From IMG/VR virus record IMGVR_UViG_3300032046_000022, positions 3,261 to 67,260 of that record: 64,000 nt of DNA; one strand, written 5' to 3'. Shown here one piece after another: positions 4,897-24,658 of the stretch. Both the position numbers and the translations under genes were made by a program. Every line of letters starts with the position of its first letter. Positions within the stretch are counted from its first letter, which is position 1. A model generated the notes under the pieces. That model saw only the letters and a list, made by a program, of their open reading frames with translations, made no database searches and was not told the origin of the DNA. This DNA comes from a virus.

Positions 4897-5295
4897 GTGA
4901 ATGCTGCGAGATATTTTACACTTCGTTATTGGGCGCACAGATACTTTGCGATTCGCCCATACATCTCCGTTGTCCATGAAGCTGTTTGGCCTTTTGTCGC
5001 TGAGTCCAGGCTGTATGAATTTGAAAAGCAAAGGAGCTATCTATTCGTCGCGTCACAATATCAAGAGGCCGAAAGGACCGAGATTGTTTTTGTGGCTGAC
5101 CAGAAAATTGATTTCGCCACATCGTGCCCATGGATCGAGCTGGTGGCAGATTCTAGGATGTATGTGCATTCTGCCGGCCAGCGAAAGTTTTTGTTCTATG
5201 CCGCGCCGCTCGAGGAGTCGGAGAATCTTGGGCGAACATTTGCAGCGTTGCGGTCTTTTGATCACGCCGACAGCGCAAGAATAGGAACGATCTGA
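4897..5295 (+). CDS. Hypothetical protein
   Basis: Fills the gap in the operon, coupled to the next gene. Confidence 0.4.
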   Translation: MNAARYFTLRYWAHRYFAIRPYISVVHEAVWPFVAESRLYEFEKQRSYLFVASQYQEAERTEIVFVADQKIDFATSCPWIELVADSRMYVHSAGQRKFLFYAAPLEESENLGRTFAALRSFDHADSARIGTI

Positions 5296-5594
5296 TGAAG
5301 CATATTCAGCGGAAGCAGCCAAGAGAAGTGATTCCATGTACCATGGATTTTGTGAAGGCTTTGCCGGCGGGCGAGGCCATTAATACGCTCGATGTAAAGG
5401 TATATGATCCAGACGAGGTGGATGTATCATCCTCAATCATCTCTGGCACACCGACCAAAGTTGGCACAAAGGTAAGTCTCGTTGTCAAAGCCGGAACGTC
5501 TGGTCTCGATTACAAGATCGAATTCATAATTGTTACTACTCCTGGCGCGTACACGCTCGAGGAGGAAGTTGAATTACAGGTGAAAGAGACATGA
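5295..5594 (+). CDS. Fibre-tail adaptor-like Ig-fold protein
   Basis: KQPREVIPCTMDF...GTSGLDYKIEF...EEEVELQVKE pattern resembles phage fibre adaptor proteins. Confidence 0.55.
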   Translation: MKHIQRKQPREVIPCTMDFVKALPAGEAINTLDVKVYDPDEVDVSSSIISGTPTKVGTKVSLVVKAGTSGLDYKIEFIIVTTPGAYTLEEEVELQVKET

Positions 5595-5950
5595 TCAATA
5601 AAGAGCTAAAAGAAGAATTGGATCGTTTTGAGGACGACTTGATGGCGAAGGTGGTACAGTCCTCAAACGGGAGGAAAGGTTGGCTTTGGAATAATGTTGG
5701 CATCATCGCGTCGACGCTCGTTATATTAGGCTCGATGCTTGTTGCGTGGGGAAAGATTCAGGCCCAAATCGAGCATCTTAACTTCGAGGACGTTCGGCTA
5801 TTTGAGGTCGACAAGTCGATCGAACAGAAAGTTGATTCTCACAGAGTCGACTCATCGCGCCACACTGACAATGAATTCAAATCAGATGTGCGGACACAGC
5901 TGAATGAAATTCGCAATCTTTTGGTTCAACACATCGAGGCTCGAAGATAG
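5591..5950 (+). CDS. Single-TM membrane protein (lysis-associated)
   Basis: One hydrophobic helix then coiled coil, directly upstream of the endolysin. Confidence 0.5.
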   Translation: MINKELKEELDRFEDDLMAKVVQSSNGRKGWLWNNVGIIASTLVILGSMLVAWGKIQAQIEHLNFEDVRLFEVDKSIEQKVDSHRVDSSRHTDNEFKSDVRTQLNEIRNLLVQHIEARR

Positions 5951-9416: not shown

Positions 9417-10124
9417 ATGTTAATAGATATGGCTGAGTATAAGGCGCAATCAAGTCCGCGTAGGATCATTCCTCCAAGACTCGCACCACTCCAGCTGTTA
9501 AAAAAGCAAACCGCTCAAGTCCAGCAATTCGAAGTGCAAAATTTGGCTTCTGTTTTCATGGATTTGTATCGACAGAAATATGGACTCAAGTTTGTCAATT
9601 TGAATAGAACGGCAGACCAGACGGCGCTCCGGCGCATCATCGTGATGTGCCAGCATAACGGCTGGCCGGTGAATGATTTTGTCGAGTATAACGTTCTGTG
9701 GTATAAGCAAAACCTTCCATACAGACCGTTGCCGACAAATTTTTGCGGCCAAAAGGCCGAGGATCGATACGAATCGTTTCTCCGCCGCGAAGGTTATATA
9801 ACAGCAGATGCGCCGGTGCCAACTCGACGGCGCGAGGAAGTTGATTCTATTGACGCAACGCGAGAGCGTGTCCGTTTGATGAGGATAAGACAGCAGCTTC
9901 CGGAACAGGCAGAAGAAGCGGCGGTCGAATACGCGAATGGAATTTCTGCCGGCTCCACTGAGCCGGCCAAGCCGCCAACAACTTGGATTAGATACACAAG
10001 GGAGCAACTGGTCGAGCTGCGCAAACAGCAAGTCTGGGCTGAAGCCAAAGAAGAATATATGAGAAGGTGGAGAGAGGAAGTGATTTATGGCCGCACCGCA
10101 GAATCTGAGGATGGACAATTTTAA
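9417..10124 (+). CDS. Hypothetical replication protein upstream of the helicase
   Basis: 235-aa ORF overlapping the helicase start; function inferred from position only. Confidence 0.45.
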   Translation: MLIDMAEYKAQSSPRRIIPPRLAPLQLLKKQTAQVQQFEVQNLASVFMDLYRQKYGLKFVNLNRTADQTALRRIIVMCQHNGWPVNDFVEYNVLWYKQNLPYRPLPTNFCGQKAEDRYESFLRREGYITADAPVPTRRREEVDSIDATRERVRLMRIRQQLPEQAEEAAVEYANGISAGSTEPAKPPTTWIRYTREQLVELRKQQVWAEAKEEYMRRWREEVIYGRTAESEDGQF

Positions 10125-11457
10125 TGGATTCGATTCAGGCTTTATAGATTCGCTTTTGCATTTGATGGTTTCGGACGTCAAATTCATGCGCGAGAATGAG
10201 GCCGGACTGAGAGCGGAGCTATTCGTAGACGACTTGCGAATGAAACTGGCTGATATAGCGCTGAAGTTCTACAAGTCGAGCGGTTGCGTGGCCAAGAATT
10301 TGTACTTGGATTTTATAAGCAAGATGTGCGATGATGAGCGTCTTCCAGAGGCGCGGATTCGTTTGCTGAAAGAGAAGGCGAGCGAGATACAGAAGGCGAG
10401 CGCAAATGCGGACTATGTCTCGTCGAGGCTCGAGCAGTATTTCTCTTTTGCAAAACTGAAAACGCTTCGTTACCAGTTGGACCGAATGATTGACTCTGGT
10501 GATGTGGAAGGCGCAAAGGGCGCGGTGAGAGCTACACAAATCGAGATCGGCAAGAATGGTCACAAGCCGGTGGATTATTTCGCGAATATTTCGCAGCGTG
10601 TTTTGCGTCGCGAGACTTTGCAGACGCAGGAGGATGGCGTTCAATTTTTGATTCCGACGCTTCATCAGAAGGGAGTGTTCGCGCATCGTGGCGAGATAAC
10701 GCTCGTGATCGCGCCGTCAAAGCGCGGCAAATCTGTCTTCCTCACCCATATCGGCCGGTGTGCAATTTTCACAGGCCACAACGTCCTGCACGTGAGCCTC
10801 GAGAATCCGATCTCGATGGTTGAGGACCGATATGATGCGATGCTGAGCGGGCTGGAAGTTGAACATTTGCGGCTTCTGGCTGATCGGCTCCAAACTAAAA
10901 TTGAGAAAGCCGCTGAGATGGCAAAAGGTCGACTGTATATTCTTTGGAAGATGGCCAGAACTTATTCGCCGATAGATTTGAAAGCGGATGTGGAGCGGAT
11001 GCGGATGGAGGGAAAACGGATCGACACGGTGATTATAGATTATGGCGAGCTATTGAAGCCGGTGGAGCGCCATGGCGGAGAATCCTCGATGCGCGCTATG
11101 CGCGATGATATTTTTGTGAACTTGCGCGGCATAGCTACAAAGTTGGATTTCGTATGCGTGACAGCTCAGCAGACGCCGTTGAAAAAGCGAACCAAGTTTC
11201 GGATCTATATGGAAGATGGCCAGGAGTCGAGCATGCCGGCTCAACACAGCAGTTTGATTATGACGCTGAACCAAACAAACGAGGAACAAGCTGCTGGTGA
11301 GATGCGACTTTATGTCGATGGATATTGGCATGGTCCGTCTGGTAAGCAAATTGGAGATATTCTTTTGAAACAGGATCTTGCGCGCATGCAATTTTGTCTA
11401 AAAGAGATTCCTGTTTTGCAAGGCGTGGAGGCTGTGACGGCGGCGACTTCGCCATAG
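10087..11457 (+). CDS. dnaB: Replicative DnaB-family (SF4) helicase
   Basis: Walker A APSKRGKS, HVSLEN, VIIDYGELL, TAQQ motifs. Confidence 0.85.
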   Translation: MAAPQNLRMDNFNGFDSGFIDSLLHLMVSDVKFMRENEAGLRAELFVDDLRMKLADIALKFYKSSGCVAKNLYLDFISKMCDDERLPEARIRLLKEKASEIQKASANADYVSSRLEQYFSFAKLKTLRYQLDRMIDSGDVEGAKGAVRATQIEIGKNGHKPVDYFANISQRVLRRETLQTQEDGVQFLIPTLHQKGVFAHRGEITLVIAPSKRGKSVFLTHIGRCAIFTGHNVLHVSLENPISMVEDRYDAMLSGLEVEHLRLLADRLQTKIEKAAEMAKGRLYILWKMARTYSPIDLKADVERMRMEGKRIDTVIIDYGELLKPVERHGGESSMRAMRDDIFVNLRGIATKLDFVCVTAQQTPLKKRTKFRIYMEDGQESSMPAQHSSLIMTLNQTNEEQAAGEMRLYVDGYWHGPSGKQIGDILLKQDLARMQFCLKEIPVLQGVEAVTAATSP

Positions 11458-15683: not shown

Positions 15684-15716
15684 AAATGGCCAAAAGTTAT
15701 TTTTTGGCCATTTTTT
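15684..15716 (+). terminator. Rho-independent terminator
   Basis: AAATGGCCAAAA/TTTTGGCCATTT stem plus T run. Confidence 0.7.
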
Positions 15717-15889
15717 GTGTAAAGGTGTGCCCGTAACTGGTTGATTCTTATCAAGATCTGGGACACAAAAAAATGCATCATTTCTGGTGTGTGTTCATGC
15801 ACCTTCTGTGGATCGACACTGTCCGCGAATGCATAAACATTGGAGAAAATAATCCTTTTTATCTGAAAGCATTAGGCGCAAGATAATGG

Positions 15890-16456
15890 TATGAGATACG
15901 AAATACATACAGGGAGGGGGGTGGCGGGAAGCCAAACGAAATAACTCGCGGAAACGCGACCCCAACTGAGGCCGAAAACGGCTGACTGGGGCAACGCCGG
16001 AAGCGGGAAAAAAGAAAGGGCAGAGAGCGCGGTGGCCTCGGCAGATGGTGAAGTCCGGCGGCGAAATTCCGACCGGAGCCAAACTCTCATAAGAGAAAAA
16101 ACCCAGCGGGAAAAGGGGCGGTAAGACGCCAACCGAAAACAAAAAAATCCAGAGCCAAAACAAACGAGACCCCGAAAGCGATGATCCACGAAAGTGGGAA
16201 GCCAGTAGGCAAAATCTCTGAGGCGACGAGCAGACTGAACTGCTTGCAGACCGGTAACAGTCCGGTTACGGACGAAATCTAGGACTCGTGATACTCCATC
16301 CCAGAATAGCAGCGCAGAATCCAAAGCGATTTGAAACTGCGGCACGCGCGAAAAAACGGATCGACGGTAAGATGGACGGGTAGCGAGCGACGGAGAGTAG
16401 AAAAAACTGATGTGGCGAAGACGCGCGAAAGCGCTGAGCCGTCTCTAAAATGAATT
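15890..16456 (+). ncRNA. Candidate large structured ncRNA (about 570-600 nt)
   Basis: No + strand ORF, purine-rich, many hairpins with GAAA-type loops; ends at the first twister ribozyme. Confidence 0.6.
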
Positions 16457-16533
16457 GCAGAGTGGCGGGAAGGAAACGCATTTCCTTTCCGCAAATGCGC
16501 TGGCTCATGGCGAGTCACCGGTCACAAGTCCGG
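16457..16533 (+). ncRNA. Twister ribozyme 1 (circularly permuted)
   Basis: GCAGAGTG-P1 hairpin-AAATGCGC-P3-CCGGTCACAAGTCCGG; A replaces U at the cleavage site. Confidence 0.75.
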
Positions 16534-16542
16534 AAGGAGACT

Positions 16543-17076
16543 ATGGAAAACGAAAAAGTACAGACGCTCGAGGGAACGTTTCGCAAACTGTTTGCTGTGT
16601 CGACGAACTTGCCGCTGAAGCTCGAATGTGATGTGAAGCCAGTGCTGGACGGAAAGATCCGCGAGAACGCTGAGCGGCTCGCTTTCGTCCTGGCCGGCAA
16701 TGCCTATTTTACGATAGAGAATACTCAAAGCGGAAATCGCTTCACGTTCCGCGTGAGCGCGAACAAAAAGGAAAGCGAAGTCACCCATTGGGTCTGTGTT
16801 CTCACCGGACCGGATAATCTTTCCAATTACACTTTCATTGGCTTTATCAAAGCCGGCGAATTCTTCCACAGTCGCAAGGGCGGCATCGGAAACGATGCAC
16901 AGAGCGTTCGAGTTTTTGCTTGGTTCTTCAAGAATCTGAAAGCAAACTCAGTGCCGGAATTCATTTTGTTCTGGCATATGGGGCGATGTTGCCGTTGCGG
17001 ACGTGCTCTTACAGTGCCGGAATCGGTGGCGGCTGGGATCGGTCCTGAGTGCGCCAGCATGGTGTCTGGATTCTAG
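16543..17076 (+). CDS. DUF6011-like Zn-finger protein
   Basis: GRCCRCGRALTVPESVAAGIGPEC; AAGGAG RBS directly after ribozyme 1. Confidence 0.7.
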   Translation: MENEKVQTLEGTFRKLFAVSTNLPLKLECDVKPVLDGKIRENAERLAFVLAGNAYFTIENTQSGNRFTFRVSANKKESEVTHWVCVLTGPDNLSNYTFIGFIKAGEFFHSRKGGIGNDAQSVRVFAWFFKNLKANSVPEFILFWHMGRCCRCGRALTVPESVAAGIGPECASMVSGF

Positions 17077-17149
17077 CAGAGTGGGACCGGTGCTCGACGC
17101 CGGTCTTAATGCGCTGCGCTCATGGTGAGCGCACCGGTCACAAGTCCGG
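17076..17149 (+). ncRNA. Twister ribozyme 2
   Basis: GCAGAGTG-GGACCGG..CCGGTCT-TAATGCGC-TGCGCTCA/TGAGCGCA-CCGGTCACAAGTCCGG. Confidence 0.85.
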
Positions 17150-17160
17150 AGGAGGCTAAG

Positions 17161-17349
17161 ATGAACGCAAAACAGATAAAAGAGATCGCGACGGCGGCGG
17201 CATATTTGAAGTCCGCTGAGGATGAATATTACAAATATCACACCAAGAATAATATGATAGGACTCGCGCTTGCCGATCTTATGAAAAGAGCAAAGCTGAT
17301 CTACGAAGACGCTCTAAAAGGAATTTCGCTTGAGGAGAGCGGTCGATAG
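17161..17349 (+). CDS. Small hypothetical protein
   Basis: GGAGG RBS, between ribozymes 2 and 3. Confidence 0.6.
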   Translation: MNAKQIKEIATAAAYLKSAEDEYYKYHTKNNMIGLALADLMKRAKLIYEDALKGISLEESGR

Positions 17350-17421
17350 CAGAGTGGGTCCGGCGCTCGACGCCGGTCTTAATGCGCGGCTCCATGGTGG
17401 AGCCTCCGGTCACAAGTCCGG
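17349..17421 (+). ncRNA. Twister ribozyme 3
   Basis: Same core with variant P3 GGCTCCA/TGGAGCC. Confidence 0.85.
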
Positions 17422-17444
17422 TTTTTGAAATTGGAGACAAGAAA

Positions 17445-18131
17445 ATGAACGCGAACAATTCTATCATCATCACCGATCGCAACTTGACCACAACCGAAGA
17501 GCAGGCAATTCTCGAAACGGGAATGATGGATCTGGCAGACTTTATGGACACCTTCCAGTATCTGGCCTTTGTGCTTGACGGCTCCGGAAGTATGTTTTGG
17601 GGTATCAATTCAGGCGACGGTCTTAACAAGGTGGAATTGGAGAAGAAGGTTATTCTCCGTTATGCCAAAGATAAGATTGGCGCGAAGGCGGACGGGATGA
17701 AAGTGGCGATCGTCGAGTTTGGCAGCAAGGCCCACATCCATCTTCGTGGCTCCAGTAGTCTGGCGGAAATCGAGGGCGGCGTGAATTTGATCGGGCATAT
17801 GGGCGGCGGAACCAATGCAAGCAAAGGAATCCGCGCTGGCTTGACTCTTCTCAAGAAGGGGAAGGGCATGATTCCGCGAATCATCTTGACGAGCGATGGT
17901 CAGATTCAGGATCTCCATCTTTGTCTCGAAGCGGCAGAACAGGCGAAGAGTGCTGGCGTGATCATCGATACCATTTACATCGGTGGCGGGTCTGAATGCG
18001 ATCACGGGAATGGCGAAATGCTCCGGCGGATCAGTTCAATTACCGGTGGCGTTCACGAGGAGATCACGGGAATGGGTGACTTCGAAGTGAAGTTCCTCAA
18101 GGTTGCGGACCGCATTCTTATCTCCGCATAA
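17445..18131 (+). CDS. von Willebrand factor A domain protein
   Basis: MIDAS DGSGSM, GGTN, LTSDG, IDTIYIG, ITGG. Confidence 0.85.
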   Translation: MNANNSIIITDRNLTTTEEQAILETGMMDLADFMDTFQYLAFVLDGSGSMFWGINSGDGLNKVELEKKVILRYAKDKIGAKADGMKVAIVEFGSKAHIHLRGSSSLAEIEGGVNLIGHMGGGTNASKGIRAGLTLLKKGKGMIPRIILTSDGQIQDLHLCLEAAEQAKSAGVIIDTIYIGGGSECDHGNGEMLRRISSITGGVHEEITGMGDFEVKFLKVADRILISA

Positions 18132-18142
18132 ATCTAATCAGT

Positions 18143-18217
18143 GCAGAGTGGGCTGGAGCAATCGCGCTCCGGCTTAATGCGCTGCGCTCGTGGTGAGCGC
18201 ACCGGTCACAAGTCCGG
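18143..18217 (+). ncRNA. Twister ribozyme 4
   Basis: Same core, P1 GGCTGGAGC/GCTCCGGCT. Confidence 0.85.
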
Positions 18218-18228
18218 AGGAGACTAAG

Positions 18229-18948
18229 ATGAACGCAAAGATGATTTTGAATAAATTGTATTCGTCTTTTTCCAAACAGGCTGACAGTGTAGAGGCGCGA
18301 TGTAGCGCTCTGGTTCAGGCTGTTGGAATTATGACGGGCGTTTGTGGAAGCCTGAAAGTTCTTCAGCTGCGCAATCCAAACGCGATGTACGTTCCTGCGG
18401 ACTCTGAAAAGCTGTGGGATCGCGCGAACAAGTGCAAGGCGCAAGCGATGGGCACAACATTTATTCACGAGAAAGAAGTCTCGCTCAGAATGTGCTTGCT
18501 TACACTTCAGAAGATGGCTGCGAAGGTGAGTCCGCCAAATCTGGAAGATTTTATTGCTAGGCTGGAAGTGAAACAGAAGGCGAAAGCAGAGAAGGTGGCG
18601 CGGGATGTAATCGCAAAAGCAAAGCGCACATCTCCGCGAGCGCCCAAGGTGGTCGGCTCGACTGCGAGTCCACGCTCTGTGAAGTCTACGGGGCATCCGT
18701 CTAATCTGGCTCCGCTTGGTCCAGACGGCGTGCCGCAATGGCGTCCTGGCTCGAGCGCCGATATTATTACTCAAGTCCTTTTCTCGAAACCGCAGATCAC
18801 GAAAGAAGAAGTGGTTGCGGCGGTAACGGGAAAGTTTCAGTCTTCCAATTTGGTTTGTCGCGTCATGATGGTCGCAGGATTTCTGATCAAGTTCGGAAAG
18901 CTGCGCCGCGTGAAAGTGAACGGGAAACCTGGGTGGGAGAGAATCTAA
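18229..18948 (+). CDS. Hypothetical protein with C-terminal winged-helix-like domain
   Basis: C-terminus resembles that of ORF 25539-26189. Confidence 0.55.
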   Translation: MNAKMILNKLYSSFSKQADSVEARCSALVQAVGIMTGVCGSLKVLQLRNPNAMYVPADSEKLWDRANKCKAQAMGTTFIHEKEVSLRMCLLTLQKMAAKVSPPNLEDFIARLEVKQKAKAEKVARDVIAKAKRTSPRAPKVVGSTASPRSVKSTGHPSNLAPLGPDGVPQWRPGSSADIITQVLFSKPQITKEEVVAAVTGKFQSSNLVCRVMMVAGFLIKFGKLRRVKVNGKPGWERI

Positions 18949-18953
18949 TCAGT

Positions 18954-19027
18954 GCAGAGTGGGCTGGAGCAATCGCGCTCCGGCTTAATGCGCGAGCGGG
19001 CTGTCCGCTCACCGGTCACAAGTCCGG
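18954..19027 (+). ncRNA. Twister ribozyme 5
   Basis: Same core, P3 GAGCGGG/TCCGCTC. Confidence 0.85.
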
Positions 19028-19045
19028 AAAATGGAGACAAAGAAA

Positions 19046-19525
19046 ATGACAAAGGAAACGATCGAAGGAATGCTCACGCGAATCGCTTTGGAATTCGACC
19101 GAGATTATCTCAATGAAATTGGGTTGGTGATCGGAGTCAAATTCACGAGATTTTTTAGTGACTGGCGGGAAATGCAGTACGGGCTGTGTGGTGTGACGTT
19201 TGGGATGTATGACGGGAACACGCGAGTCATATATTTGAATGCTTATTTCCACAAGATGCTGGAGCATGGTTTTTTTCTTAGTGAAGTAAAAGGTGTGATT
19301 TTTCACGAGTTGTGCCACGGCGCTCTTTTGAATTCGCTTCAGCCGATTCGACTTGGTATGTATCAGAGTGGACCAGCCGGTGATCATGGACCGGATTTCG
19401 AGGCGCTCGAGCACCGGTATTCCGATTATATTCGCAAGGATCGATTGCAGGCGATGATGCCCGATATTCTGGGCTGGATGCGCCATAACGTTCCGGCGAA
19501 ATTGCGAGAGGAGAGTGGTCGATAG
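19046..19525 (+). CDS. SprT-like zinc metalloprotease
   Basis: IYLN...VIFHELCH...DHGPDF. Confidence 0.75.
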   Translation: MTKETIEGMLTRIALEFDRDYLNEIGLVIGVKFTRFFSDWREMQYGLCGVTFGMYDGNTRVIYLNAYFHKMLEHGFFLSEVKGVIFHELCHGALLNSLQPIRLGMYQSGPAGDHGPDFEALEHRYSDYIRKDRLQAMMPDILGWMRHNVPAKLREESGR

Positions 19526-19598
19526 CAGAGTGGGACCGGTGCTCGACGCCGGTCTTAATGCGCTGCGCTCATGGTGAGCGCACCGGTCACAAGTCCGG
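19525..19598 (+). ncRNA. Twister ribozyme 6
   Basis: Identical to copy 2 over 74 nt. Confidence 0.85.
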
Positions 19599-19615
19599 AA
19601 AACGGAGATAAAAAA

Positions 19616-19870
19616 ATGCCTTTGCTTAGAAACATGACGGATGCTCAGGTGATTGAACGGATCAGCGGTTTGGTTCGGTATGTCAGTAATTGGGTCGACG
19701 GTGAATTGGTGCTTAATGGTTTCGACGGCGCGTATAAAATCGACATCGAAGTAAAAGTGCAGGGAAAGAAAAACGTTGAGCATCTTCGCATGCTGGGTGG
19801 TGTTCTCCAGGAGATCAGTCTGATGATCGACCGGCGTGAGGGATTTCAGCCGAGCGAAGAAGAACTATAA
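19616..19870 (+). CDS. Small hypothetical protein
   Basis: GGAG RBS after ribozyme 6. Confidence 0.6.
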   Translation: MPLLRNMTDAQVIERISGLVRYVSNWVDGELVLNGFDGAYKIDIEVKVQGKKNVEHLRMLGGVLQEISLMIDRREGFQPSEEEL

Positions 19871-19875
19871 GTATA

Positions 19876-19948
19876 GCAGAGTGTGACCGGCGCTCAATGC
19901 CGGTCTTAATGCGCCGACTCAAGGTGGGTCGACCGGTCACAAGTCCGG
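19876..19948 (+). ncRNA. Twister ribozyme 7
   Basis: Same core, P3 CGACTCA/TGGGTCG. Confidence 0.85.
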
Positions 19949-19971
19949 ATTTTGAAATTGGAGACAAGAAG

Positions 19972-20373
19972 ATGGCGACAATTATAGTTGAGTGCGATGC
20001 TTGCGGAACCAAGAACAAGATCGAGGATAGCAAAGCACAGACGGCGCGCTGTGGGCGTTGCCGGAATCCGTTGTTGGACGCGGTCCAAGAACAGCTTGGT
20101 CTTTTTGACGATGACGAAGACGAAGACGAAGACGAAGACGAAGACGAAGACGAAGACGCCGCTGGCGCTTCTCAGCCGCTGGGCAAGATCTTTGCCGGCG
20201 GGACGCTCCCTCATGGGACGAAGTTCACCGGCGCTCAGCCGACGGCGGCGGATGTGATGATGGATTTGTTTGGCGCTTCTGGTCTGAATACTCTGTGCAA
20301 GATTCCGTGCAAGGATTGCGGGCGGATGTTTATCGGACCAGTGACTCAGACGCTGTGCGCGAATTGTGAGTAG
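19972..20373 (+). CDS. Zn-ribbon protein with acidic (DE)n linker
   Basis: CDACGTKN...CGRC; DEDEDE tract; CKDCG...CANC. Confidence 0.65.
   Translation: MATIIVECDACGTKNKIEDSKAQTARCGRCRNPLLDAVQEQLGLFDDDEDEDEDEDEDEDEDAAGASQPLGKIFAGGTLPHGTKFTGAQPTAADVMMDLFGASGLNTLCKIPCKDCGRMFIGPVTQTLCANCE
20113..20157 (+). repeat. (GACGAA)7 coding microsatellite
   Basis: Seven perfect hexamers plus GAC. Confidence 0.95.
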
Positions 20374-20506
20374 AGCGTGCCGGCGCAGAAGGCCGGTGTG
20401 TGTTATGTTTGTGGGAAGATGAAAGAAAAGAAGATGGCGACATCGGCTATGCGCAACTTCTGCGCTCTCCGGTTGGCCAAGAATATGTTTGGTTCTGCTT
20501 AGTTTT

Positions 20507-20579
20507 GCAGAGTGGGACCGGCGCTCAATGCCGGTCTTAATGTGCCGACTCAAGGTGGGTCGACCGGTCACAAGTCCGG
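20507..20579 (+). ncRNA. Twister ribozyme 8
   Basis: Same core, TAATGT variant giving G-U in P2. Confidence 0.8.
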
Positions 20580-20594
20580 AAAATGGAGACGAAG

Positions 20595-21107
20595 ATGCAT
20601 TTTGTAATAGGAGAGTCTGTGCAGTTTAGAGGCCGGCAGGGAAAGGTTGTTCTTGGCGTGGTGTTCTCAGCAAATAGATGTCGCTCCAAATATATGGTTC
20701 GAGCGGGGTCGGGCAAAGTTTATAACGTTCCGGATCGGATGCTTGAATCTGTTCTTGGTGTGAGTGGCGCTGAAGCCGAGAAGATGGTGACGGCTGGTCT
20801 TGATTTTATGGATCGGCGTGCTGAGTTATTCAGGGCGAGTCGTAAGCGAATGGGCGAGTGCATGAAGGATCGCACTGACAAGCTGCGCTCCGGAATGGCT
20901 GTGCAAGTTTATTCGCTCGGGAAATGGAGCCGGACAGAGATCGTTCGCGTTCTTCCGGAAGTTGGCAAGGTTACAGTTCTGAATCCAGCAGCGATTCTGT
21001 ATCATCGTGAGCGGATAGATTCGGCTCTCGACGGTCTGATTTCCAGATTGATGAAGAAACGGAGAGACACCATCACGGTGCTTGCGAATAGAATCTGTGT
21101 GATGTAG
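20595..21107 (+). CDS. Hypothetical protein with two SH3/KOW-like beta domains
   Basis: FVIGESVQF...GVV and LRSGMAVQV patterns; GGAG RBS. Confidence 0.55.
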   Translation: MHFVIGESVQFRGRQGKVVLGVVFSANRCRSKYMVRAGSGKVYNVPDRMLESVLGVSGAEAEKMVTAGLDFMDRRAELFRASRKRMGECMKDRTDKLRSGMAVQVYSLGKWSRTEIVRVLPEVGKVTVLNPAAILYHRERIDSALDGLISRLMKKRRDTITVLANRICVM

Positions 21108-21180
21108 CAGAGTGGGACCGGTGCTCGACGCCGGTCTTAATGCGCTGCGCTCATGGTGAGCGCACCGGTCACAAGTCCGG
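21107..21180 (+). ncRNA. Twister ribozyme 9
   Basis: Identical to copies 2 and 6. Confidence 0.85.
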
Positions 21181-21191
21181 AGGAGACTAAC

Positions 21192-21476
21192 ATGAAGTCA
21201 GTGGCAAAAGGCTACACACGAGCTGAATTCGAGCGCGTGGAGTTGGACGGCTGTGAGTTTGATATTGTCGTGGATTATGCGGCGGCGTGTGTGGATGATT
21301 TTGACATTATCGAAGTGAAATCCGTGGGCGGTTATGGCGTGCCGTGCTCTCTGCGGGGTCTCAAGATCGGAGAGCCGCTCGAGCGATGGGTGGACCGCCA
21401 TCACGCTGGTGTGATTATTGAACTGGCCCAGAACCATCTTGCCGAGCACAGAGAAGACTGGCGATGGGATTCCTAG
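21192..21476 (+). CDS. Small acidic hypothetical protein
   Basis: GGAGGAG RBS after ribozyme 9. Confidence 0.6.
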   Translation: MKSVAKGYTRAEFERVELDGCEFDIVVDYAAACVDDFDIIEVKSVGGYGVPCSLRGLKIGEPLERWVDRHHAGVIIELAQNHLAEHREDWRWDS

Positions 21477-21546
21477 CAGAGTGGACCGGTGTTGAGTGCC
21501 GGTCTAATGCGCCGACTCAAGGTGGGTCGACCGGTCACAAGTCCGG
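21476..21546 (+). ncRNA. Twister ribozyme 10
   Basis: Same core, P1 GACCGGT/GCCGGTC, P3 as in copy 7. Confidence 0.85.
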
Positions 21547-21554
21547 AGGAGACT

Positions 21555-21980
21555 ATGGAAACAGAAAAGTTGAACACGGTGAAATCTCTTTTCGATGTTT
21601 TGAGTCAACTTTTTACGATGCTCGAAATCAAGGTCGATGTGCGAGTGAATTCTGACGACGCAGTCGAAATCGACGGCTGGCTTTGGGCGTATGTCGATAA
21701 GATGACAGAGAGAACGAATGTTATTGGTGGCGTGCGCACGAATTTGTTGTTCGATTGTTTTGTGATTGGTGTTACGAAATATTCGTCGGCCACGCGCTGG
21801 TGTCCGGAAGAATTGGACAGAGCTGAATTGGACAGAGTTCACGGTTCGTATAATGCTGCAAAACGAATGGCTTCGCTGTATTTCGAAAGCAGGGTCGACG
21901 GCGCGCTCGAGCAAGTTGAGTTTGGTCAGTCCGAGATGGATAAGATTGAGATTAAAAAAGCGCTTGATGAGCTACTGTGA
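21555..21980 (+). CDS. Hypothetical protein
   Basis: GGAGGAG RBS after ribozyme 10. Confidence 0.6.
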   Translation: METEKLNTVKSLFDVLSQLFTMLEIKVDVRVNSDDAVEIDGWLWAYVDKMTERTNVIGGVRTNLLFDCFVIGVTKYSSATRWCPEELDRAELDRVHGSYNAAKRMASLYFESRVDGALEQVEFGQSEMDKIEIKKALDELL

Positions 21981-21993
21981 TGAGGGCGCTTAG

Positions 21994-22128
21994 AGGAATA
22001 GAAGGATGCTTGCGGAAAATCCTGATTTGGTTATTGCGTTCCATAGTAATATATCAGCATCAAAAGGAACGCAGAACTGTATCAGCCAAGCGGCGGCGCT
22101 TAGAATCGTGGTCGAGATTATTGAATAG
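21994..22128 (+). pseudogene. C-terminal fragment of a SLOG/DUF2493-like gene
   Basis: RNRRMLAENPDLVIAFHSNISASKGTQNCISQA...VEIIE*, preceded in frame by TAG. Confidence 0.5.
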
Positions 22129-22197
22129 CAGAGTGGAGGCTCCAGCAGATCATCTTCTGCTGTCCTTTAATGCGCTTAGAGCCGGTCACAAGTCCGG
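22128..22197 (+). ncRNA. Twister ribozyme 11 (no P3)
   Basis: GCAGAGTG-P1 (CAGCAGA/TCTGCTG)-TAATGCGCT-TAGA-GCCGGTCACAAGTCCGGC. Confidence 0.8.
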
Positions 22198-22370
22198 CCA
22201 GCAAGTGTGGGCGAACGCGGGCCAAATCCGCAATCGCCAAATCGCTGTCTCCAACAGCGCATTCCGGTGACTGAGCAGGAACATCGGGAAATCGCGTCGA
22301 TTTCAAGGCTCGCGCTTCACCGCGCCGCCATTTCCTGCTCACAAATGCGCTTGTAGAAAAGGAGACTAAA

Positions 22371-22913
22371 ATGGTGAGTGCGACATTTGTGGGTTGTTTC
22401 AAGATTTTGCGGGAAGGTTTGCGTCGCGAGTTGACTCAGCGGGGCCATTTGGTCACGCATTATTTCGAGTCGATGGATGGGCAACCGCTCGCTCTCAATT
22501 TCCAGAATAGCGCAGATGACACAATCACTGTGTTCTGGGGACCGAAGAACAATCGACACAAGCTGGTTGATCCAGACTCGAAGATGCTGGCTGATGCAAT
22601 CGAAAAATCTCTTGACGAAAAGGTTCAGCCTCCGCCGGCGATAAAAAGATCGTCACCGCAACAAGCCGCTGCGCCAAAACAGAAACCGCAACAAGCCGCT
22701 GCGCCAAAACAGAAACCGCAAGGTGGTGTTTTTGTAACAGATGCTGATTATGCCGAGCTGCAGAGATTGCGCTCGATGGCCAATCACGGCGTTTGGATCG
22801 GCAATGCTGTTTATGCCGCGATGAAGGAAGAGATGCGCATCGGCTATGTCCCGATGGAAGCGCGGCAGAAAATAAACACTTCATTTGATAGGTTATGGAG
22901 GATGATGGCGTGA
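22371..22913 (+). CDS. Hypothetical protein with a 10-aa tandem repeat
   Basis: AAGGAG RBS; PQQAAAPKQK x2. Confidence 0.6.
   Translation: MVSATFVGCFKILREGLRRELTQRGHLVTHYFESMDGQPLALNFQNSADDTITVFWGPKNNRHKLVDPDSKMLADAIEKSLDEKVQPPPAIKRSSPQQAAAPKQKPQQAAAPKQKPQGGVFVTDADYAELQRLRSMANHGVWIGNAVYAAMKEEMRIGYVPMEARQKINTSFDRLWRMMA
22655..22721 (+). repeat. 30-bp tandem duplication
   Basis: ACCGCAACAAGCCGCTGCGCCAAAACAGAA x2 plus a partial copy. Confidence 0.9.
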
Positions 22914-24658
22914 TATTAACCTATGATTCTGAGGCGAATATTTTCAAGTTGGAGTCGGCTTACGAAGATAGGGAGATTCCGAAAGCCGCGAATTTTATTT
23001 GGAACAGACTTGTCGAAAAACACTGGGCGACGCAAGATCTCTCGAAGGCGAGAATGCTCGCCCAGTATGCTGATTCGGCTTGTCAAGTTGTACTGAAGGC
23101 CGCGCTGGAAAAACAGGCGGCGATTTTAGAGTTGTCCTCCGCTACATCTGCAGACCTTTCGATTCCTGCTCCTGATGGCCTGGAGTATTATGGCTTTCAG
23201 AAGGCAGGAGTTGCATTCGCTTTGGAGAAGAAGCGCGTTCTGATCGCTGACGAAATGGGTCTTGGTAAGACGATTCAGGTTATTGGCGTTATTAACGCGC
23301 TTCAGACGATTCGGAAAGTTCTCATAATTACCAAGGCATCACTGCGCCTGAATTGGCTTGGCGAAGTCCGCCGTTGGCTTACGAGGAGCCTGTCAGTGGA
23401 ATTGGCGTACAGCGCGATCTGGCCAGTGGCAGATATCATCATTATAAATTATGATATTCTTGTGCGCCACAAAGCGCAGATTGACGCTGTGGATTGGGAT
23501 CTGCTCGTGATGGACGAGTCCCATCTTATCAAGAATCCGAAGGCGCAGCGCACTGCAATGGTTCTGGGGCGCGTTCCTAAAAAACCTGACGAGCCGAAGG
23601 TGTCGGCGATTCGCGCTCGATATGCGATAGCGACAACGGGATCACCAATCGAAAATAGTCCGATCGAGATTTTCGGGATTCTGCGCTATTTGGATGCGCG
23701 GTCGTGGCCGAGTTTTTGGAGTTTTGTCCAGCGCTATTGCGATGCGCACAATGATGGATATGGCTGGGATTTTTCTGGTGCAAGTAATAAGGAGGAGTTG
23801 CAGCGCAAGCTGCGAGAGACGGTCATGATTCGCCGGTTGAAGCGCGACGTTCTCAAGGATCTGCCGGAAAAGCAATATCAAGTGATAGAGATTCCGGTCG
23901 AAGACAGCGGTTTGAAAAAATTTCTTGCGGAAGAATTGAGCGAGTGGAATAGGAAGACTGCCGAATTGCAGACGCTGCGCGAAGCGGTCAAGGCTGCAAA
24001 ACTGGCTGGAAACGAAGATGCCTATCGCCAGCTGGTGGCCGCGCTCGCTGAGGGTTTGAAAGTGAAGTTTGAAGAATTCAGCGAGAAACGCCACGAAACG
24101 GGCGTGCGAAAATTGCCGTATGTGATAGATTATTTGCAGGAAATTATGGAAGAGGAACCGCACAAGGCGCTTGTCTTCGGACATCATCGCGACGTTCTCG
24201 AGCGGCTCCATCGCGAATTCAAAAATTCGCTTCTGATTCACGGTGGCATTCAACCAGATAAGAGGCAAGCAATAGTCGACCGGTTTCAAACTGACGAAAG
24301 TGTGGGTCTGTTTTTTGGCTCGATTGGAGCGGCTGGTGCCGGTCTGAATATGACGGCGGCGAGTCATGTGATTTTTGTAGAAGAAGATGTGGTTCCAGAG
24401 CGCATTCGGCAAGCCGAAGATCGCGCTCACCGAATTGGTCAAAAGAATTCAGTTCTGGTGACTCACCTTGTGCTCGAAGGTTCTCTGGATGCGCATCTCG
24501 CCAAGATTGCGGCTGGGAAAGCAGCCAATATCGAGGTGATTCTGGGGACCAATAACAGCCAATTTGAGCTAATCGAAACCGGTTTGTGGGGAAACCTATG
24601 CGCCGATCCTAAAAAACCCAGCCTTGCCCAGCAGGAGCGTGATGTATGCCCATTTTGA
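22895..24658 (+). CDS. SNF2-family (HARP/SMARCAL1-like) helicase
   Basis: LIADEMGLGKT, DESH, TGSP, QAEDRAHRIGQ. Confidence 0.92.
   Translation: MEDDGVILTYDSEANIFKLESAYEDREIPKAANFIWNRLVEKHWATQDLSKARMLAQYADSACQVVLKAALEKQAAILELSSATSADLSIPAPDGLEYYGFQKAGVAFALEKKRVLIADEMGLGKTIQVIGVINALQTIRKVLIITKASLRLNWLGEVRRWLTRSLSVELAYSAIWPVADIIIINYDILVRHKAQIDAVDWDLLVMDESHLIKNPKAQRTAMVLGRVPKKPDEPKVSAIRARYAIATTGSPIENSPIEIFGILRYLDARSWPSFWSFVQRYCDAHNDGYGWDFSGASNKEELQRKLRETVMIRRLKRDVLKDLPEKQYQVIEIPVEDSGLKKFLAEELSEWNRKTAELQTLREAVKAAKLAGNEDAYRQLVAALAEGLKVKFEEFSEKRHETGVRKLPYVIDYLQEIMEEEPHKALVFGHHRDVLERLHREFKNSLLIHGGIQPDKRQAIVDRFQTDESVGLFFGSIGAAGAGLNMTAASHVIFVEEDVVPERIRQAEDRAHRIGQKNSVLVTHLVLEGSLDAHLAKIAAGKAANIEVILGTNNSQFELIETGLWGNLCADPKKPSLAQQERDVCPF

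What the first reader, a model, noticed from the sequence alone, without database searches (positions are those of the whole stretch)
16457..22197. Eleven permuted twister ribozymes punctuate an accessory operon, roughly one per gene
Seen: 11 copies of a 70-77 nt element (starts 16457, 17076, 17349, 18143, 18954, 19525, 19876, 20507, 21107, 21476, 22128). Invariant parts are GCAGAGTG, (T/A)AATG(C/T)GC and CCGGTCACAAGTCCGG, separated by variable hairpins whose pairing is preserved. Established: this fits the twister consensus (P2 UGC/GCA; U^A cleavage, e.g. 17107/17108; L4 CAC pairing with GUG as T1; GC pairing with L4 as T2) in a permutation with P1 closed and open ends at the P5 position. In six copies the G of the upstream TAG stop is the first ribozyme base, and in ten the RBS follows P4 within about 15 nt. 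Inference: one long transcript self-cleaves into mostly monocistronic RNAs, each with a 5'-OH plus hairpins and a 3' hairpin with 2',3'-cyclic phosphate. This would be a protein-free analogue of RNase III processing of T7 early mRNA. Clustered ribozymes are known in bacterial and phage DNA, but I do not know of a characterised gene-by-gene array like this.
Basis: partly seen in the sequence, partly recalled or inferred. Interest (0 to 1): 0.95.

Follow-up and report, generated by a model that had tools for sequence, protein, structure and literature searches.

The report
Twister ribozyme array in phage operon
Eleven copies of a known self-cutting RNA, the twister ribozyme, sit one per gene in a block of small genes of an uncultivated phage and probably chop one long message into single-gene messages, a large and tidy case of an arrangement proposed for phages in 2011.

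Summary
Observation confirmed. All 11 elements score above Rfam's gathering cut-off for Twister-P5 (RF02684; 39.8-46.7 bits against 37.6). Nothing else in the 64 kb matches any Rfam family at E<=0.1.

The window is part of a 67-kb metagenomic tailed-phage contig from sediment. Ten ribozymes are followed by GGAG 2-12 nt after P4 and a start codon 8-23 nt after P4. Six begin with the G of the upstream TAG stop.

I found the same design in three other phage contigs, with 6, 15 and 5 copies. In two of them, ribozymes precede orthologous genes, and P1, P4 and the T1 pseudoknot show compensatory changes.

Cleavage into single-gene mRNAs is inferred, not shown; no RNA run holds this DNA.

The idea is not new. 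Clustered hammerheads flanking single prophage genes were described and tested in 2011 (PMC3088659). Earlier notes of this scan report similar or larger twister arrays on other DNA.

New here:
- Gene order differs between arrays.
- A complement of the new 5' end follows the last ribozyme in three arrays.
- Contigs from a second sample show alternative cassette joints.

The parts
15684..15713 (+). Terminator-like hairpin with T run that closes the preceding operon
   Evidence: 13-pair stem followed by a T run; sequence read
15714..16455 (+). Purine-rich leader with no + strand ORF of 40 aa or more except 16331-16453. It would be released by cleavage in T1. The promoter is not identified.
   Evidence: ORF list and sequence. 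Sequence islands are shared with the leaders before the first twister in G001 and G002. The consensus fold on 3 sequences was inconclusive.
16456..16533 (+). Twister-P5 T1; predicted cut 16493/16494 (A^A)
   Evidence: 39.8 bits
16543..17076 (+). Gene 1, 177 aa, DUF6011 C-terminus / phrog_20259
17075..17149 (+). Twister-P5 T2 (identical to T6 and T9); cut 17107/17108
   Evidence: 46.7 bits
17161..17349 (+). Gene 2, 62 aa, no family
17348..17421 (+). Twister-P5 T3; cut 17380/17381
   Evidence: 43.3 bits
17445..18131 (+). Gene 3, 228 aa, von Willebrand A domain; orthologues in G001 (58%) and G002 (53%), each also preceded by a twister
18142..18217 (+). Twister-P5 T4; cut 18175/18176
   Evidence: 44.5 bits
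18229..18948 (+). Gene 4, 239 aa, no family; orthologues in G001 (45%) and G002 (35%)
18953..19027 (+). Twister-P5 T5 (its 5' half is identical to that of T4); cut 18986/18987
   Evidence: 45.4 bits; repeat D8
19046..19525 (+). Gene 5, 159 aa; faint SprT-like match only (E 0.1); homologue in G002 (40%)
19524..19598 (+). Twister-P5 T6; cut 19556/19557
   Evidence: 46.7 bits
19616..19870 (+). Gene 6, 84 aa
19875..19948 (+). Twister-P5 T7; cut 19907/19908
   Evidence: 46.5 bits
19972..20373 (+). Gene 7, 133 aa, N-terminal zinc ribbon plus an acidic D/E repeat; the N-terminus is conserved in G001 and G002
   Evidence: (D6)
20375..20401 (+). P1-like hairpin directly after the gene 7 stop. Probably a decayed twister 5' half; it also scores as terminator-like.
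   Evidence: repeat family D5; not detected by Rfam
20434..20502 (+). 22-aa ORF behind a copy of the RBS and first codons of gene 7
   Evidence: repeat D7
20506..20579 (+). Twister-P5 T8 (P2 has G-U); cut 20538/20539
   Evidence: 46.7 bits
20595..21107 (+). Gene 8, 170 aa; homologue in G002 (32%)
21106..21180 (+). Twister-P5 T9; cut 21138/21139
   Evidence: 46.7 bits
21192..21476 (+). Gene 9, 94 aa
21475..21546 (+). Twister-P5 T10; cut 21505/21506
   Evidence: 46.2 bits
21555..21980 (+). Gene 10, 141 aa
22006..22128 (+). 40-aa ORF without a ribozyme of its own; its TAG overlaps T11
22127..22197 (+). Twister-P5 T11; no P3 hairpin, no RBS behind it; cut 22168/22169
   Evidence: 41.3 bits
22198..22370 (+). 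173-nt untranslated stretch after the last ribozyme. It holds an 8-nt exact complement (22256-22263) of the new 5' end made by T11, and a partial twister-like copy at 22329-22351.
   Evidence: complement present after the last ribozyme in 3 of 3 related arrays; repeat D12
22371..22913 (+). Conserved 180-aa gene after the array (29-31% identity to the genes after the arrays of G001 and G002); no family

Best explanation
The eleven elements are genuine, selectively maintained type-P5 twister self-cleaving ribozymes. They are embedded in one rightward transcription unit of an uncultivated tailed phage, between the DnaB-like helicase region and a second helicase.

The proposed mechanism has these steps.
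1. Transcription starts somewhere after the terminator at 15684-15713 (inferred).
2. As each ribozyme emerges it folds (P2, P1, optional P3, P4, pseudoknots T1 and T2) and cuts itself between the base after P1 and the conserved A of AAUGC.
3. The upstream RNA therefore ends, right after its stop codon, in GCAGAGUG plus the G+C-rich P1 hairpin and a 2',3'-cyclic phosphate.
4. The downstream RNA begins with a 5'-OH, AAUGCGC, the P3 and P4 hairpins, and then a Shine-Dalgarno sequence and start codon within 8-23 nt.

The predicted result is a set of gene-sized mRNAs (273-811 nt for the ten units) with standard ends, made without any host RNase. Each accessory gene is then expressed and degraded independently of its neighbours.

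What is shown: family membership, the register with stops and RBSs, conservation of the design, and structure covariation across four phages.

What is inferred: co-transcription, cleavage in vivo, and the effect on stability and translation.

A likely side effect, and perhaps a second function, is that the near-identical ribozyme-plus-RBS units act as homologous joints at which gene cassettes are duplicated, lost and reordered.
For: Family membership: 11 of 11 copies score above the Rfam gathering score over the full model, with 0 of 14 control genomes matching.

Structure, on 35 copies (29 distinct) from four phages:
- 99.1% of pair cells form standard pairs, against 82.5% in shuffles (0 of 500 shuffles reach it).
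- 10 of 19 pairs show changes on both sides.
- The T1 pseudoknot was not part of the model used for alignment. Its middle pair is U-A in 26 copies and C-G in 3.

Register: the stop codon overlaps or lies at most 11 nt before the ribozyme in 10 of 10 copies that have an upstream gene. GGAG lies 2-12 nt after P4 in 10 of 11.

Conservation of the design:
- The closest relative by helicase (51% identity) has 6 Twister-P5 copies in the same place.
- A complete 81-kb phage has 15 (14 above cut-off), each after a stop; 13 of the 15 are followed directly by an RBS and ATG.
- A fourth phage has 5 (4 above cut-off).
- Ribozymes precede orthologous vWA, gene-4 and zinc-ribbon genes although the proteins are only 35-58% identical.

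Transcription context: all long ORFs are on the + strand. A strong terminator lies upstream of the leader, and no sigma-70-like excess is seen inside the array.

Folding: the P1 hairpin sits at the very 3' end of the predicted upstream product in 10 of 11 minimum-energy folds.

Precedent: clustered hammerheads flank single genes in prophages and cleave in vitro and in E. coli (PMC3088659, passages).
Against: There is no RNA evidence of any kind; 0 of 7 listed runs are RNA.

The promoter was not found, so a single transcript is assumed.

Catalysis was not assayed. T1 has A rather than U 5' of the cut, and T8 has a G-U pair in P2.

The predicted unpaired probability of the SD in the cleaved products is mixed (0.23-0.97 over T1-T10), so 'the RBS is always freed' is not supported by folding.

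A 5'-OH end is not always protective. [quoted passage not shown] The host here is unknown.

The public unitigs of the probable source sample break inside the repeated ribozymes. The order of some cassettes in the contig therefore rests on the original assembler.
Confidence: 0.72

Rival explanations
1. The main selected role of the repeats is recombination, not RNA processing. The near-identical ribozyme-plus-RBS units act as joints for homologous exchange, so accessory gene cassettes can be shuffled, gained and lost, comparable to boundary repeats in other phages. Cleavage is secondary.
For: T2, T6 and T9 are identical over 75 nt, and T4 and T5 share 52 identical nt including upstream coding sequence. 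Copies are more alike within an array (mean 0.67-0.75) than between the three related arrays (window, L063 and L244: 0.55-0.62). Gene order differs between arrays: the DUF6011 gene is first here and near the end in G002, and the zinc-ribbon gene lies before gene 8 here and after its homologue there. Genes 4 and 5 have a ribozyme between them here and none in G002. Two contigs from a second sediment sample join gene 5/T6 to T4/gene 4 and gene 9/T10 to T7/gene 7.
Against: Recombination needs only sequence identity. It does not explain an invariant catalytic core, compensatory changes in P1, P4 and the T1 pseudoknot, or the fixed register with stop codons and RBSs. The alternative joints are single low-depth contigs (about 4x). 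The one with 43 shared nt could be an assembly chimera.
Confidence: 0.15
2. Cleavage serves timed destruction rather than stabilisation. The cuts inactivate or shorten the life of early messages, for example through a host 5'-to-3' exonuclease acting on 5'-OH ends, giving a short burst of accessory-gene expression.
For: There is precedent that a ribozyme cut can destabilise the downstream mRNA (glmS; title cited in PMC6765202; paper not read). The array lies in a replication/early-type region.
Against: Both predicted ends carry stable hairpins. Every cut leaves the RBS and ORF intact on the 3' product, which looks like a design for expression. Host and its RNases are unknown.
Confidence: 0.08
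3. The excised gene units are rejoined. The two ends of one unit (5'-OH and 2',3'-cyclic phosphate) can rebuild a complete twister core in cis and be ligated by a host RtcB-type ligase or by the reverse reaction, giving circular or spliced mRNAs.
For: All copies share the same P2, T1 and T2 sequences, so any 3' half can pair with any 5' half. The end chemistry is as described for self-cleaving ribozymes in PMC8782182 (abstract). Perreault 2011 raised the same possibility for hammerheads.
Against: Perreault 2011 report that they could not detect spliced or circular products. The held record (84% complete) holds no RtcB, RNA ligase or AAA_33-type kinase match. Contact between the halves would be only about 6 base pairs. 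No RNA data exist.
Confidence: 0.04
4. The copies are inactive relics or selfish repeats with no role for the phage.
For: Decayed copies exist: 20375-20401, 22329-22351, and possibly 21985-21997, which I read from the sequence and no repeat or CM call tested.
Against: 11 of 11 keep every invariant core base and score above the curated cut-off. Covariation and conservation at orthologous junctions in phages with 35-58% protein identity indicate purifying selection.
Confidence: 0.02

Closest known systems
Type-P5 twister self-cleaving ribozyme (Rfam RF02684; class defined by Roth et al. 2014, as reviewed in PMC5408937)
   Same: Full-length matches above the gathering score. P1, P2 and P4 stems are present, P3 is optional, the T1 and T2 pseudoknots form, the L1 and L4 bases are conserved, and the cut lies 5' of a conserved A next to P1. 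Termini are at the P5 position.
   Different: Nothing in the ribozyme itself. The middle T1 pair is U-A here where the Rfam consensus has G-C (a compensatory variant), and P2 has 3 pairs. The unusual features are the copy number (11) and the strict placement.
Clustered hammerhead ribozymes flanking genes in prophages (Perreault et al. 2011, PMC3088659)
   Same: Several self-cleaving ribozymes flank individual genes or short gene blocks of phage origin. [quoted passage not shown]
   Different: A different ribozyme class. Three ribozymes per tested arrangement against 11 here (5-15 in relatives). Here the stop-ribozyme-RBS register is uniform and the copies are near-identical.
RNase III processing of phage T7 early mRNA (recalled textbook knowledge, no call)
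   Same: One long early transcript is cut between genes, leaving hairpins at the 3' ends of the products.
   Different: T7 uses a host protein enzyme that leaves 5'-phosphate and 3'-OH ends. Here the RNA cuts itself and leaves 5'-OH and 2',3'-cyclic phosphate ends.
Engineered ribozyme insulators and ribozyme-assisted polycistronic expression (pRAP, PMC9872166, abstract in search listing only; RiboJ recalled)
   Same: A self-cleaving ribozyme placed before each RBS separates cistrons and standardises the 5' untranslated region.
   Different: Those are synthetic constructs. This is a natural arrangement recurring in several phages.
Association of bacterial twister and hammerhead ribozymes with phage genes and with other ribozymes (Weinberg et al. 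2015, as summarised in PMC10085705 and PMC4604425)
   Same: Ribozymes are enriched near phage genes and near each other. PMC10085705 calls the reason 'still unknown'.
   Different: Those reports concern statistical enrichment. The strongest gene links were to Mu-like phages, and I saw no description of 10-plus arrays. I could not read Roth 2014 or Weinberg 2015.

Membership tests
Twister ribozyme, type P5 (RF02684) | Covariance-model score at or above Rfam's gathering score | tested here: met
   11 of 11, 39.8-46.7 bits against 37.6, model positions 1-58 of 58
Twister ribozyme, type P5 (RF02684) | [quoted passage not shown] | tested here: met
   On 29 distinct copies from four phages: P1 has 6 of 7 pairs with changes on both sides, P4 has 3 of 4, and P2 is nearly invariant (98.9% paired)
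Twister ribozyme, type P5 (RF02684) | Double pseudoknot T1 (L1 with L4) and T2 (PMC5408937) | tested here: met
   T1 is 100% paired, with the middle pair U-A in 26 and C-G in 3. T2 is 100% paired with one-sided changes only (G-U or G-C). Neither was in the model used to align
Twister ribozyme, type P5 (RF02684) | Strongly conserved bases in L1 and L4, and a conserved A 3' of the scissile phosphate with a less conserved U 5' of it | tested here: met
   GCAGAGTG, AATG and GTCACAAG are invariant in the 17 copies of the window and G001. A follows the cut in 11 of 11 window copies. The base before the cut is U in 10 and A in 1
Twister ribozyme, type P5 (RF02684) | Permutation: P1 closed by a loop, ends at the P5 position | tested here: met
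   Order P2(5')-L1-P1 hairpin-cut-P2(3')-T2-P3-P4 in all copies
Twister ribozyme, type P5 (RF02684) | Site-specific self-cleavage giving 5'-OH and 2',3'-cyclic phosphate | not testable with these tools
   No assay is possible and no RNA run holds the DNA
Ribozyme-processed polycistronic phage mRNA (as proposed by Perreault 2011) | Ribozymes lie between genes of one co-oriented transcription unit | tested here: met
   All 11 lie between + strand ORFs, there is a terminator before the leader, and the consensus scan gives no excess of promoter-like sites. Co-transcription itself is not shown
Ribozyme-processed polycistronic phage mRNA (as proposed by Perreault 2011) | Gene-length RNA products exist in vivo | not testable with these tools
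   No RNA holder listed

The most novel reading that the evidence does not exclude
The twister-plus-RBS unit is a phage gene-cassette adaptor with two linked functions.

As RNA, it cuts any gene placed between two units out of the long message and gives it a standard leader and tail, so expression does not depend on neighbours or on host RNases.

As DNA, the near-identical units are the homologous joints at which cassettes are duplicated, lost and reordered. This would make it a ribozyme-based analogue of integron cassettes.

The array is closed by a specialised last ribozyme. Its new 5' end is captured by a conserved downstream complement, turning cleavage into a structural switch for the conserved gene that follows.
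Probability: 0.3. Interest if true: 0.75.

Novelty: new variant of a known kind. Interest (0 to 1): 0.55.

Why it matters
What bacterial and phage twister ribozymes are for is still an open question. PMC10085705 (2023) says the reason for their association with phage genes and with each other is 'still unknown', and the 2019 review PMC6765202 calls for more work.

Arrays like this one make the processing hypothesis directly testable on a single 6-kb piece of DNA. They offer ten natural repeats of the same stop-ribozyme-RBS design and natural variants. Related phages provide compensatory changes and gain or loss of individual ribozymes.

If the units also serve as recombination joints, that would explain why ribozymes cluster in variable phage regions.

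The design is also a natural counterpart of the ribozyme insulators used in synthetic biology.

Tried and rejected
RNA evidence. The look-up of sequencing runs listed 7 sediment DNA runs and no RNA holder, so expression and cleavage could not be examined. Read laying on 4 DNA runs can show only DNA. The high depth at 19989-20219 comes from the acidic GACGAA repeat shared with other organisms. The 20159-to-21895 joint has a 22-nt side and I ignored it.

Other ribozyme classes. No hammerhead, pistol, hatchet, twister-sister or HDV-like match in the window at E<=0.1, and none at gathering thresholds in 11 helicase-relative loci.

Helicase relatives. Of 63 loci encoding relatives of the downstream helicase (L063-L125), only L063 has twisters by my model R1 at E<=0.01. 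The array is therefore not a general feature of that wider group.

Motif scans. The exact window P4 motif occurs in 62 viral stretches with 1-2 matches each. The G002 P4 motif occurs in 38 stretches, with many matches only in G002 itself. The genome-contig scan gave only 6 MAG contigs (Clostridia, Leptospirales, Planctomycetota) with 1-2 matches each, so there is no host inference.

Phage identity. The best isolate match to the portal is 34% (Xanthomonas phage Xp15), so there is no close cultured relative.

RNA-end enzymes. No RtcB, RNA_ligase or AAA_33 match in the record.

Leader RNA. The three-sequence consensus fold was inconclusive.

RBS exposure. Folding of the cleaved products gave mixed SD accessibility, so I do not claim it.

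Gene functions. Most cassette proteins match no Pfam or PHROG function.

Papers.
- Roth 2014, Weinberg 2015 and Felletti 2017 are not held. What I say of them comes from other papers' summaries or from recall.
- Supplementary figures of Perreault 2011 were seen as legends only.
- Searches for a published description of large twister arrays found none in the held library. This does not cover subscription journals or the three unread papers.

Full report
WHAT IS THERE. The window is bases 3261-67260 of a 67,260-bp linear IMG/VR virus record, estimated 84% complete. All long ORFs run on the + strand. They include a DnaB-like helicase (10087-11457), a second helicase (22895-24658), a large DNA polymerase, an SbcC-like nuclease, terminase, portal and head-maturation proteins. 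This is a tailed phage. The best isolate match to its portal is 34%. DNA runs that hold the stretch are sediment metagenomes.

Between 16456 and 22197, Rfam's cmscan finds 11 Twister-P5 ribozymes above the curated cut-off, each matching the whole model. No other Rfam family matches anywhere in the window, even at E<=0.1. The same family search rings in 0 of 14 control genomes. The six TAG-overlapping starts and the ten RBS-linked copies are also confirmed.

ANATOMY. Each copy reads GCA (P2), GAGUG (L1, of which GUG forms T1) and a G+C-rich P1 hairpin. Then come one base, the cut, AA, UGC (P2) and GC (T2). A P3 hairpin of 5-8 pairs follows, absent in T11. The copy ends with CCGG-UCACAAGU-CCGG (P4/L4).

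Predicted cuts are 16493/4, 17107/8, 17380/1, 18175/6, 18986/7, 19556/7, 19907/8, 20538/9, 21138/9, 21505/6 and 22168/9.

Upstream stop codons overlap the ribozyme (6 copies) or lie 4-11 nt before it (4 copies). T1 follows an ORF-free leader instead. GGAG lies 2-12 nt and the start codon 8-23 nt after P4 in T1-T10.

Eight of the ten intervals hold a single ORF (62-239 aa). Two hold an ORF plus a 22-aa or 40-aa ORF.

T2, T6 and T9 are identical, and T4 and T5 share an identical 5' half. The RBS, the first codons and sometimes the last codons are part of the repeat. The hairpins are combined as modules: the same P1 arm occurs with different P3 hairpins.

A strong terminator-like hairpin (15684-15713) precedes a 740-nt purine-rich leader. 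The leader has no + strand ORF of 40 aa or more apart from 16331-16453. No convincing promoter was found.

RELATIVES. Of 63 viral loci encoding relatives of the downstream helicase, only the closest has twisters. That locus is L063, from the 51.9-kb record G001, with 51% helicase identity. G001 carries six Twister-P5 copies in the same position. They sit behind a similar leader and in front of orthologues of the vWA gene (58%), gene 4 (45%) and the zinc-ribbon gene. A last copy lies about 170 nt before an orthologue of the 22371 gene.

A pattern scan followed by my own covariance model led to G002, an 81-kb record rated complete. G002 has 15 matches (14 above cut-off) in 7.6 kb. Each follows a stop codon, and 13 of the 15 are followed directly by an RBS and ATG. 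G002 shares homologues of genes 1, 3, 4, 5, 6, 7 and 8 and of the post-array gene.

A more distant phage, G004 (57.6 kb, terminal repeats), has five (4 above cut-off). Other viral loci found by motif carry 1-3 copies.

Earlier notes of this scan report the same kind of array on other DNA, with 9 to about 30 copies. One of them describes an 81-kb phage with 15 intact copies, which may be G002. I did not test those notes beyond finding G002 myself.

IS THE STRUCTURE UNDER SELECTION? On 35 copies (29 distinct) from the four phages, 99.1% of pair cells are standard pairs, against 82.5% after shuffling (0 of 500 shuffles reach it). Ten of 19 pairs show changes on both sides, and slid controls drop to 25-38% paired.

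P4 differs by array: CCGG/CCGG here, mostly CUGG/CCAG in G002, and YAG/CUR in G001.

The alignment was fitted to a model holding P1, P2 and P4, so those counts lean toward it. The pseudoknots were not in the model. Even so, T1 is 100% paired, and three G002 copies carry GCG/CGC in place of GUG/CAC.

Ribozymes are retained at orthologous junctions while the flanking proteins have diverged to 35-58% identity. Together this argues for purifying selection on a working fold, not just on a repeat.

HOW IT MOST LIKELY WORKS. The anatomy fits co-transcriptional self-cleavage of a long message into gene-sized mRNAs. Each would end in the P1 hairpin with a cyclic phosphate and begin with a 5'-OH, two hairpins and its own RBS. 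Minimum-energy folds place P1 at the very 3' end of 10 of 11 upstream products. SD accessibility in the downstream products is mixed (0.23-0.97), so I make no claim about RBS unmasking.

Whether the ends stabilise or destabilise the mRNAs depends on the unknown host. The glmS precedent, cited by title in PMC6765202, points the other way.

Nothing here shows transcription or cleavage. No RNA run is available.

SECOND THEME: CASSETTES. Four observations bear on this.
- Gene order differs between the arrays. The DUF6011 gene is first here and near the end in G002. The zinc-ribbon gene and gene 8 are in opposite order.
- Genes 4 and 5 are separated by a ribozyme here and overlap without one in G002.
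- Copies are more alike within an array than between the related arrays.
- Decayed copies remain at 20375-20401 and 22329-22351.

In a second sediment sample, one contig joins the end of gene 5 and the 5' part of T6 to the 3' part of T4 and gene 4 (28 shared nt). Another joins gene 9/T10 to T7/gene 7 (43 shared nt). These are single contigs at about 4x depth, and the second could be a chimera. They are hints, not proof.

The unitigs of the probable source sample break inside the repeated ribozymes. So the cassette order in the contig itself is less certain than the existence of each gene-ribozyme junction.

THE LAST RIBOZYME IS DIFFERENT. T11 lacks P3 and an RBS and is followed by 173 nt of untranslated RNA before a conserved gene. 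An exact 8-nt complement of the new 5' end (AAUGCGCU) lies 59 nt after P4, at 22256-22263.

The equivalent 7-8-nt complement lies 65-67 nt after the last ribozyme of G001 and G002. That makes 3 of 3 last units, while 0 of 29 internal units have a complement of 7 nt or more within 130 nt.

In G004, all 5 ribozymes are followed 9-11 nt after P4 by a 6-7-nt complement. It changes together with the 5'-end sequence, in four different versions.

This helix excludes P2 and T2. It should therefore form only after the upstream fragment has left, or else compete with the ribozyme fold. I read it as a capture of the new 5' end, or a brake on cleavage. This is inference.

COMPARISON WITH WHAT IS KNOWN. 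The ribozyme is an ordinary member of a known family. Clustering of self-cleaving ribozymes near phage genes and near each other is known (PMC4604425, PMC10085705; passages).

Perreault et al. 2011 described multiple hammerheads flanking individual genes in prophages. They proposed processing into single-gene mRNAs, and showed cleavage of triple arrangements in vitro and of the A. tumefaciens arrangement in E. coli (PMC3088659, passages).

The 2019 review extends the idea to twister and says it needs more work (PMC6765202).

Six full-text searches found no description of arrays of ten or more twisters with this register. I could not read Roth 2014, Weinberg 2015 or any supplement.

VERDICT. 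The finding is real and well formed. It is a large example of a known kind rather than a new kind. Three points go beyond the literature I could see: evidence for selection across four phages, the cassette reshuffling, and the 5'-end complement. Function remains inferred.

Noticed in passing
window 15714-16455; L063 about 5275-5695; L244 (- strand) 9817-10312: A 420-740-nt purine-rich stretch without ORFs precedes the first twister in all three related phages. The window and G002 share sequence islands. Cleavage in T1 would release it as a separate RNA. No Rfam match, and the three-sequence consensus fold was inconclusive.
   Followed up: partly
window 22256-22263; L063 9323-9329; flipped L244 9861-9868; L245, five sites 9-11 nt after each P4: An exact complement of the 5' end created by twister cleavage follows the last ribozyme of three arrays. 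In a fourth phage it follows every ribozyme and co-varies with the 5'-end sequence.
   Followed up: partly
window 20375-20401 and 20421-20502: Directly after the gene 7 stop lies a P1-like hairpin that also looks like a terminator. It is followed by a copy of the gene 7 RBS and first codons heading a 22-aa ORF. Together they look like a decayed cassette junction.
   Followed up: partly
window 22329-22351 and 21985-21997: Partial twister-like pieces. The first is a copy of the T1 P1 3' arm plus AAATGCGCT just before the RBS of the 22371 gene. The second is GCGCTTAGAG, as in T11, before the 40-aa ORF. Neither is detected by the covariance models.
   Followed up: no
window 19403-19571 joined to 18191-18316, and 21388-21504 joined to 19907-20052, in run X2: Contigs from another sediment sample join different cassettes across a ribozyme. 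These are either variant genomes with another gene order or assembly chimeras.
   Followed up: partly
window 20107-20166: An acidic GACGAA (D/E) repeat in the zinc-ribbon gene attracts very high depth from unrelated contigs in all four runs. Its length varies between contigs.
   Followed up: no
window 22655-22714: A perfect 30-nt tandem duplication inside the conserved post-array gene (repeat family D13).
   Followed up: no
L065 18461-18822: A tmRNA gene (106.6 bits) on a 190-kb viral contig that encodes a relative of the helicase.
   Followed up: no
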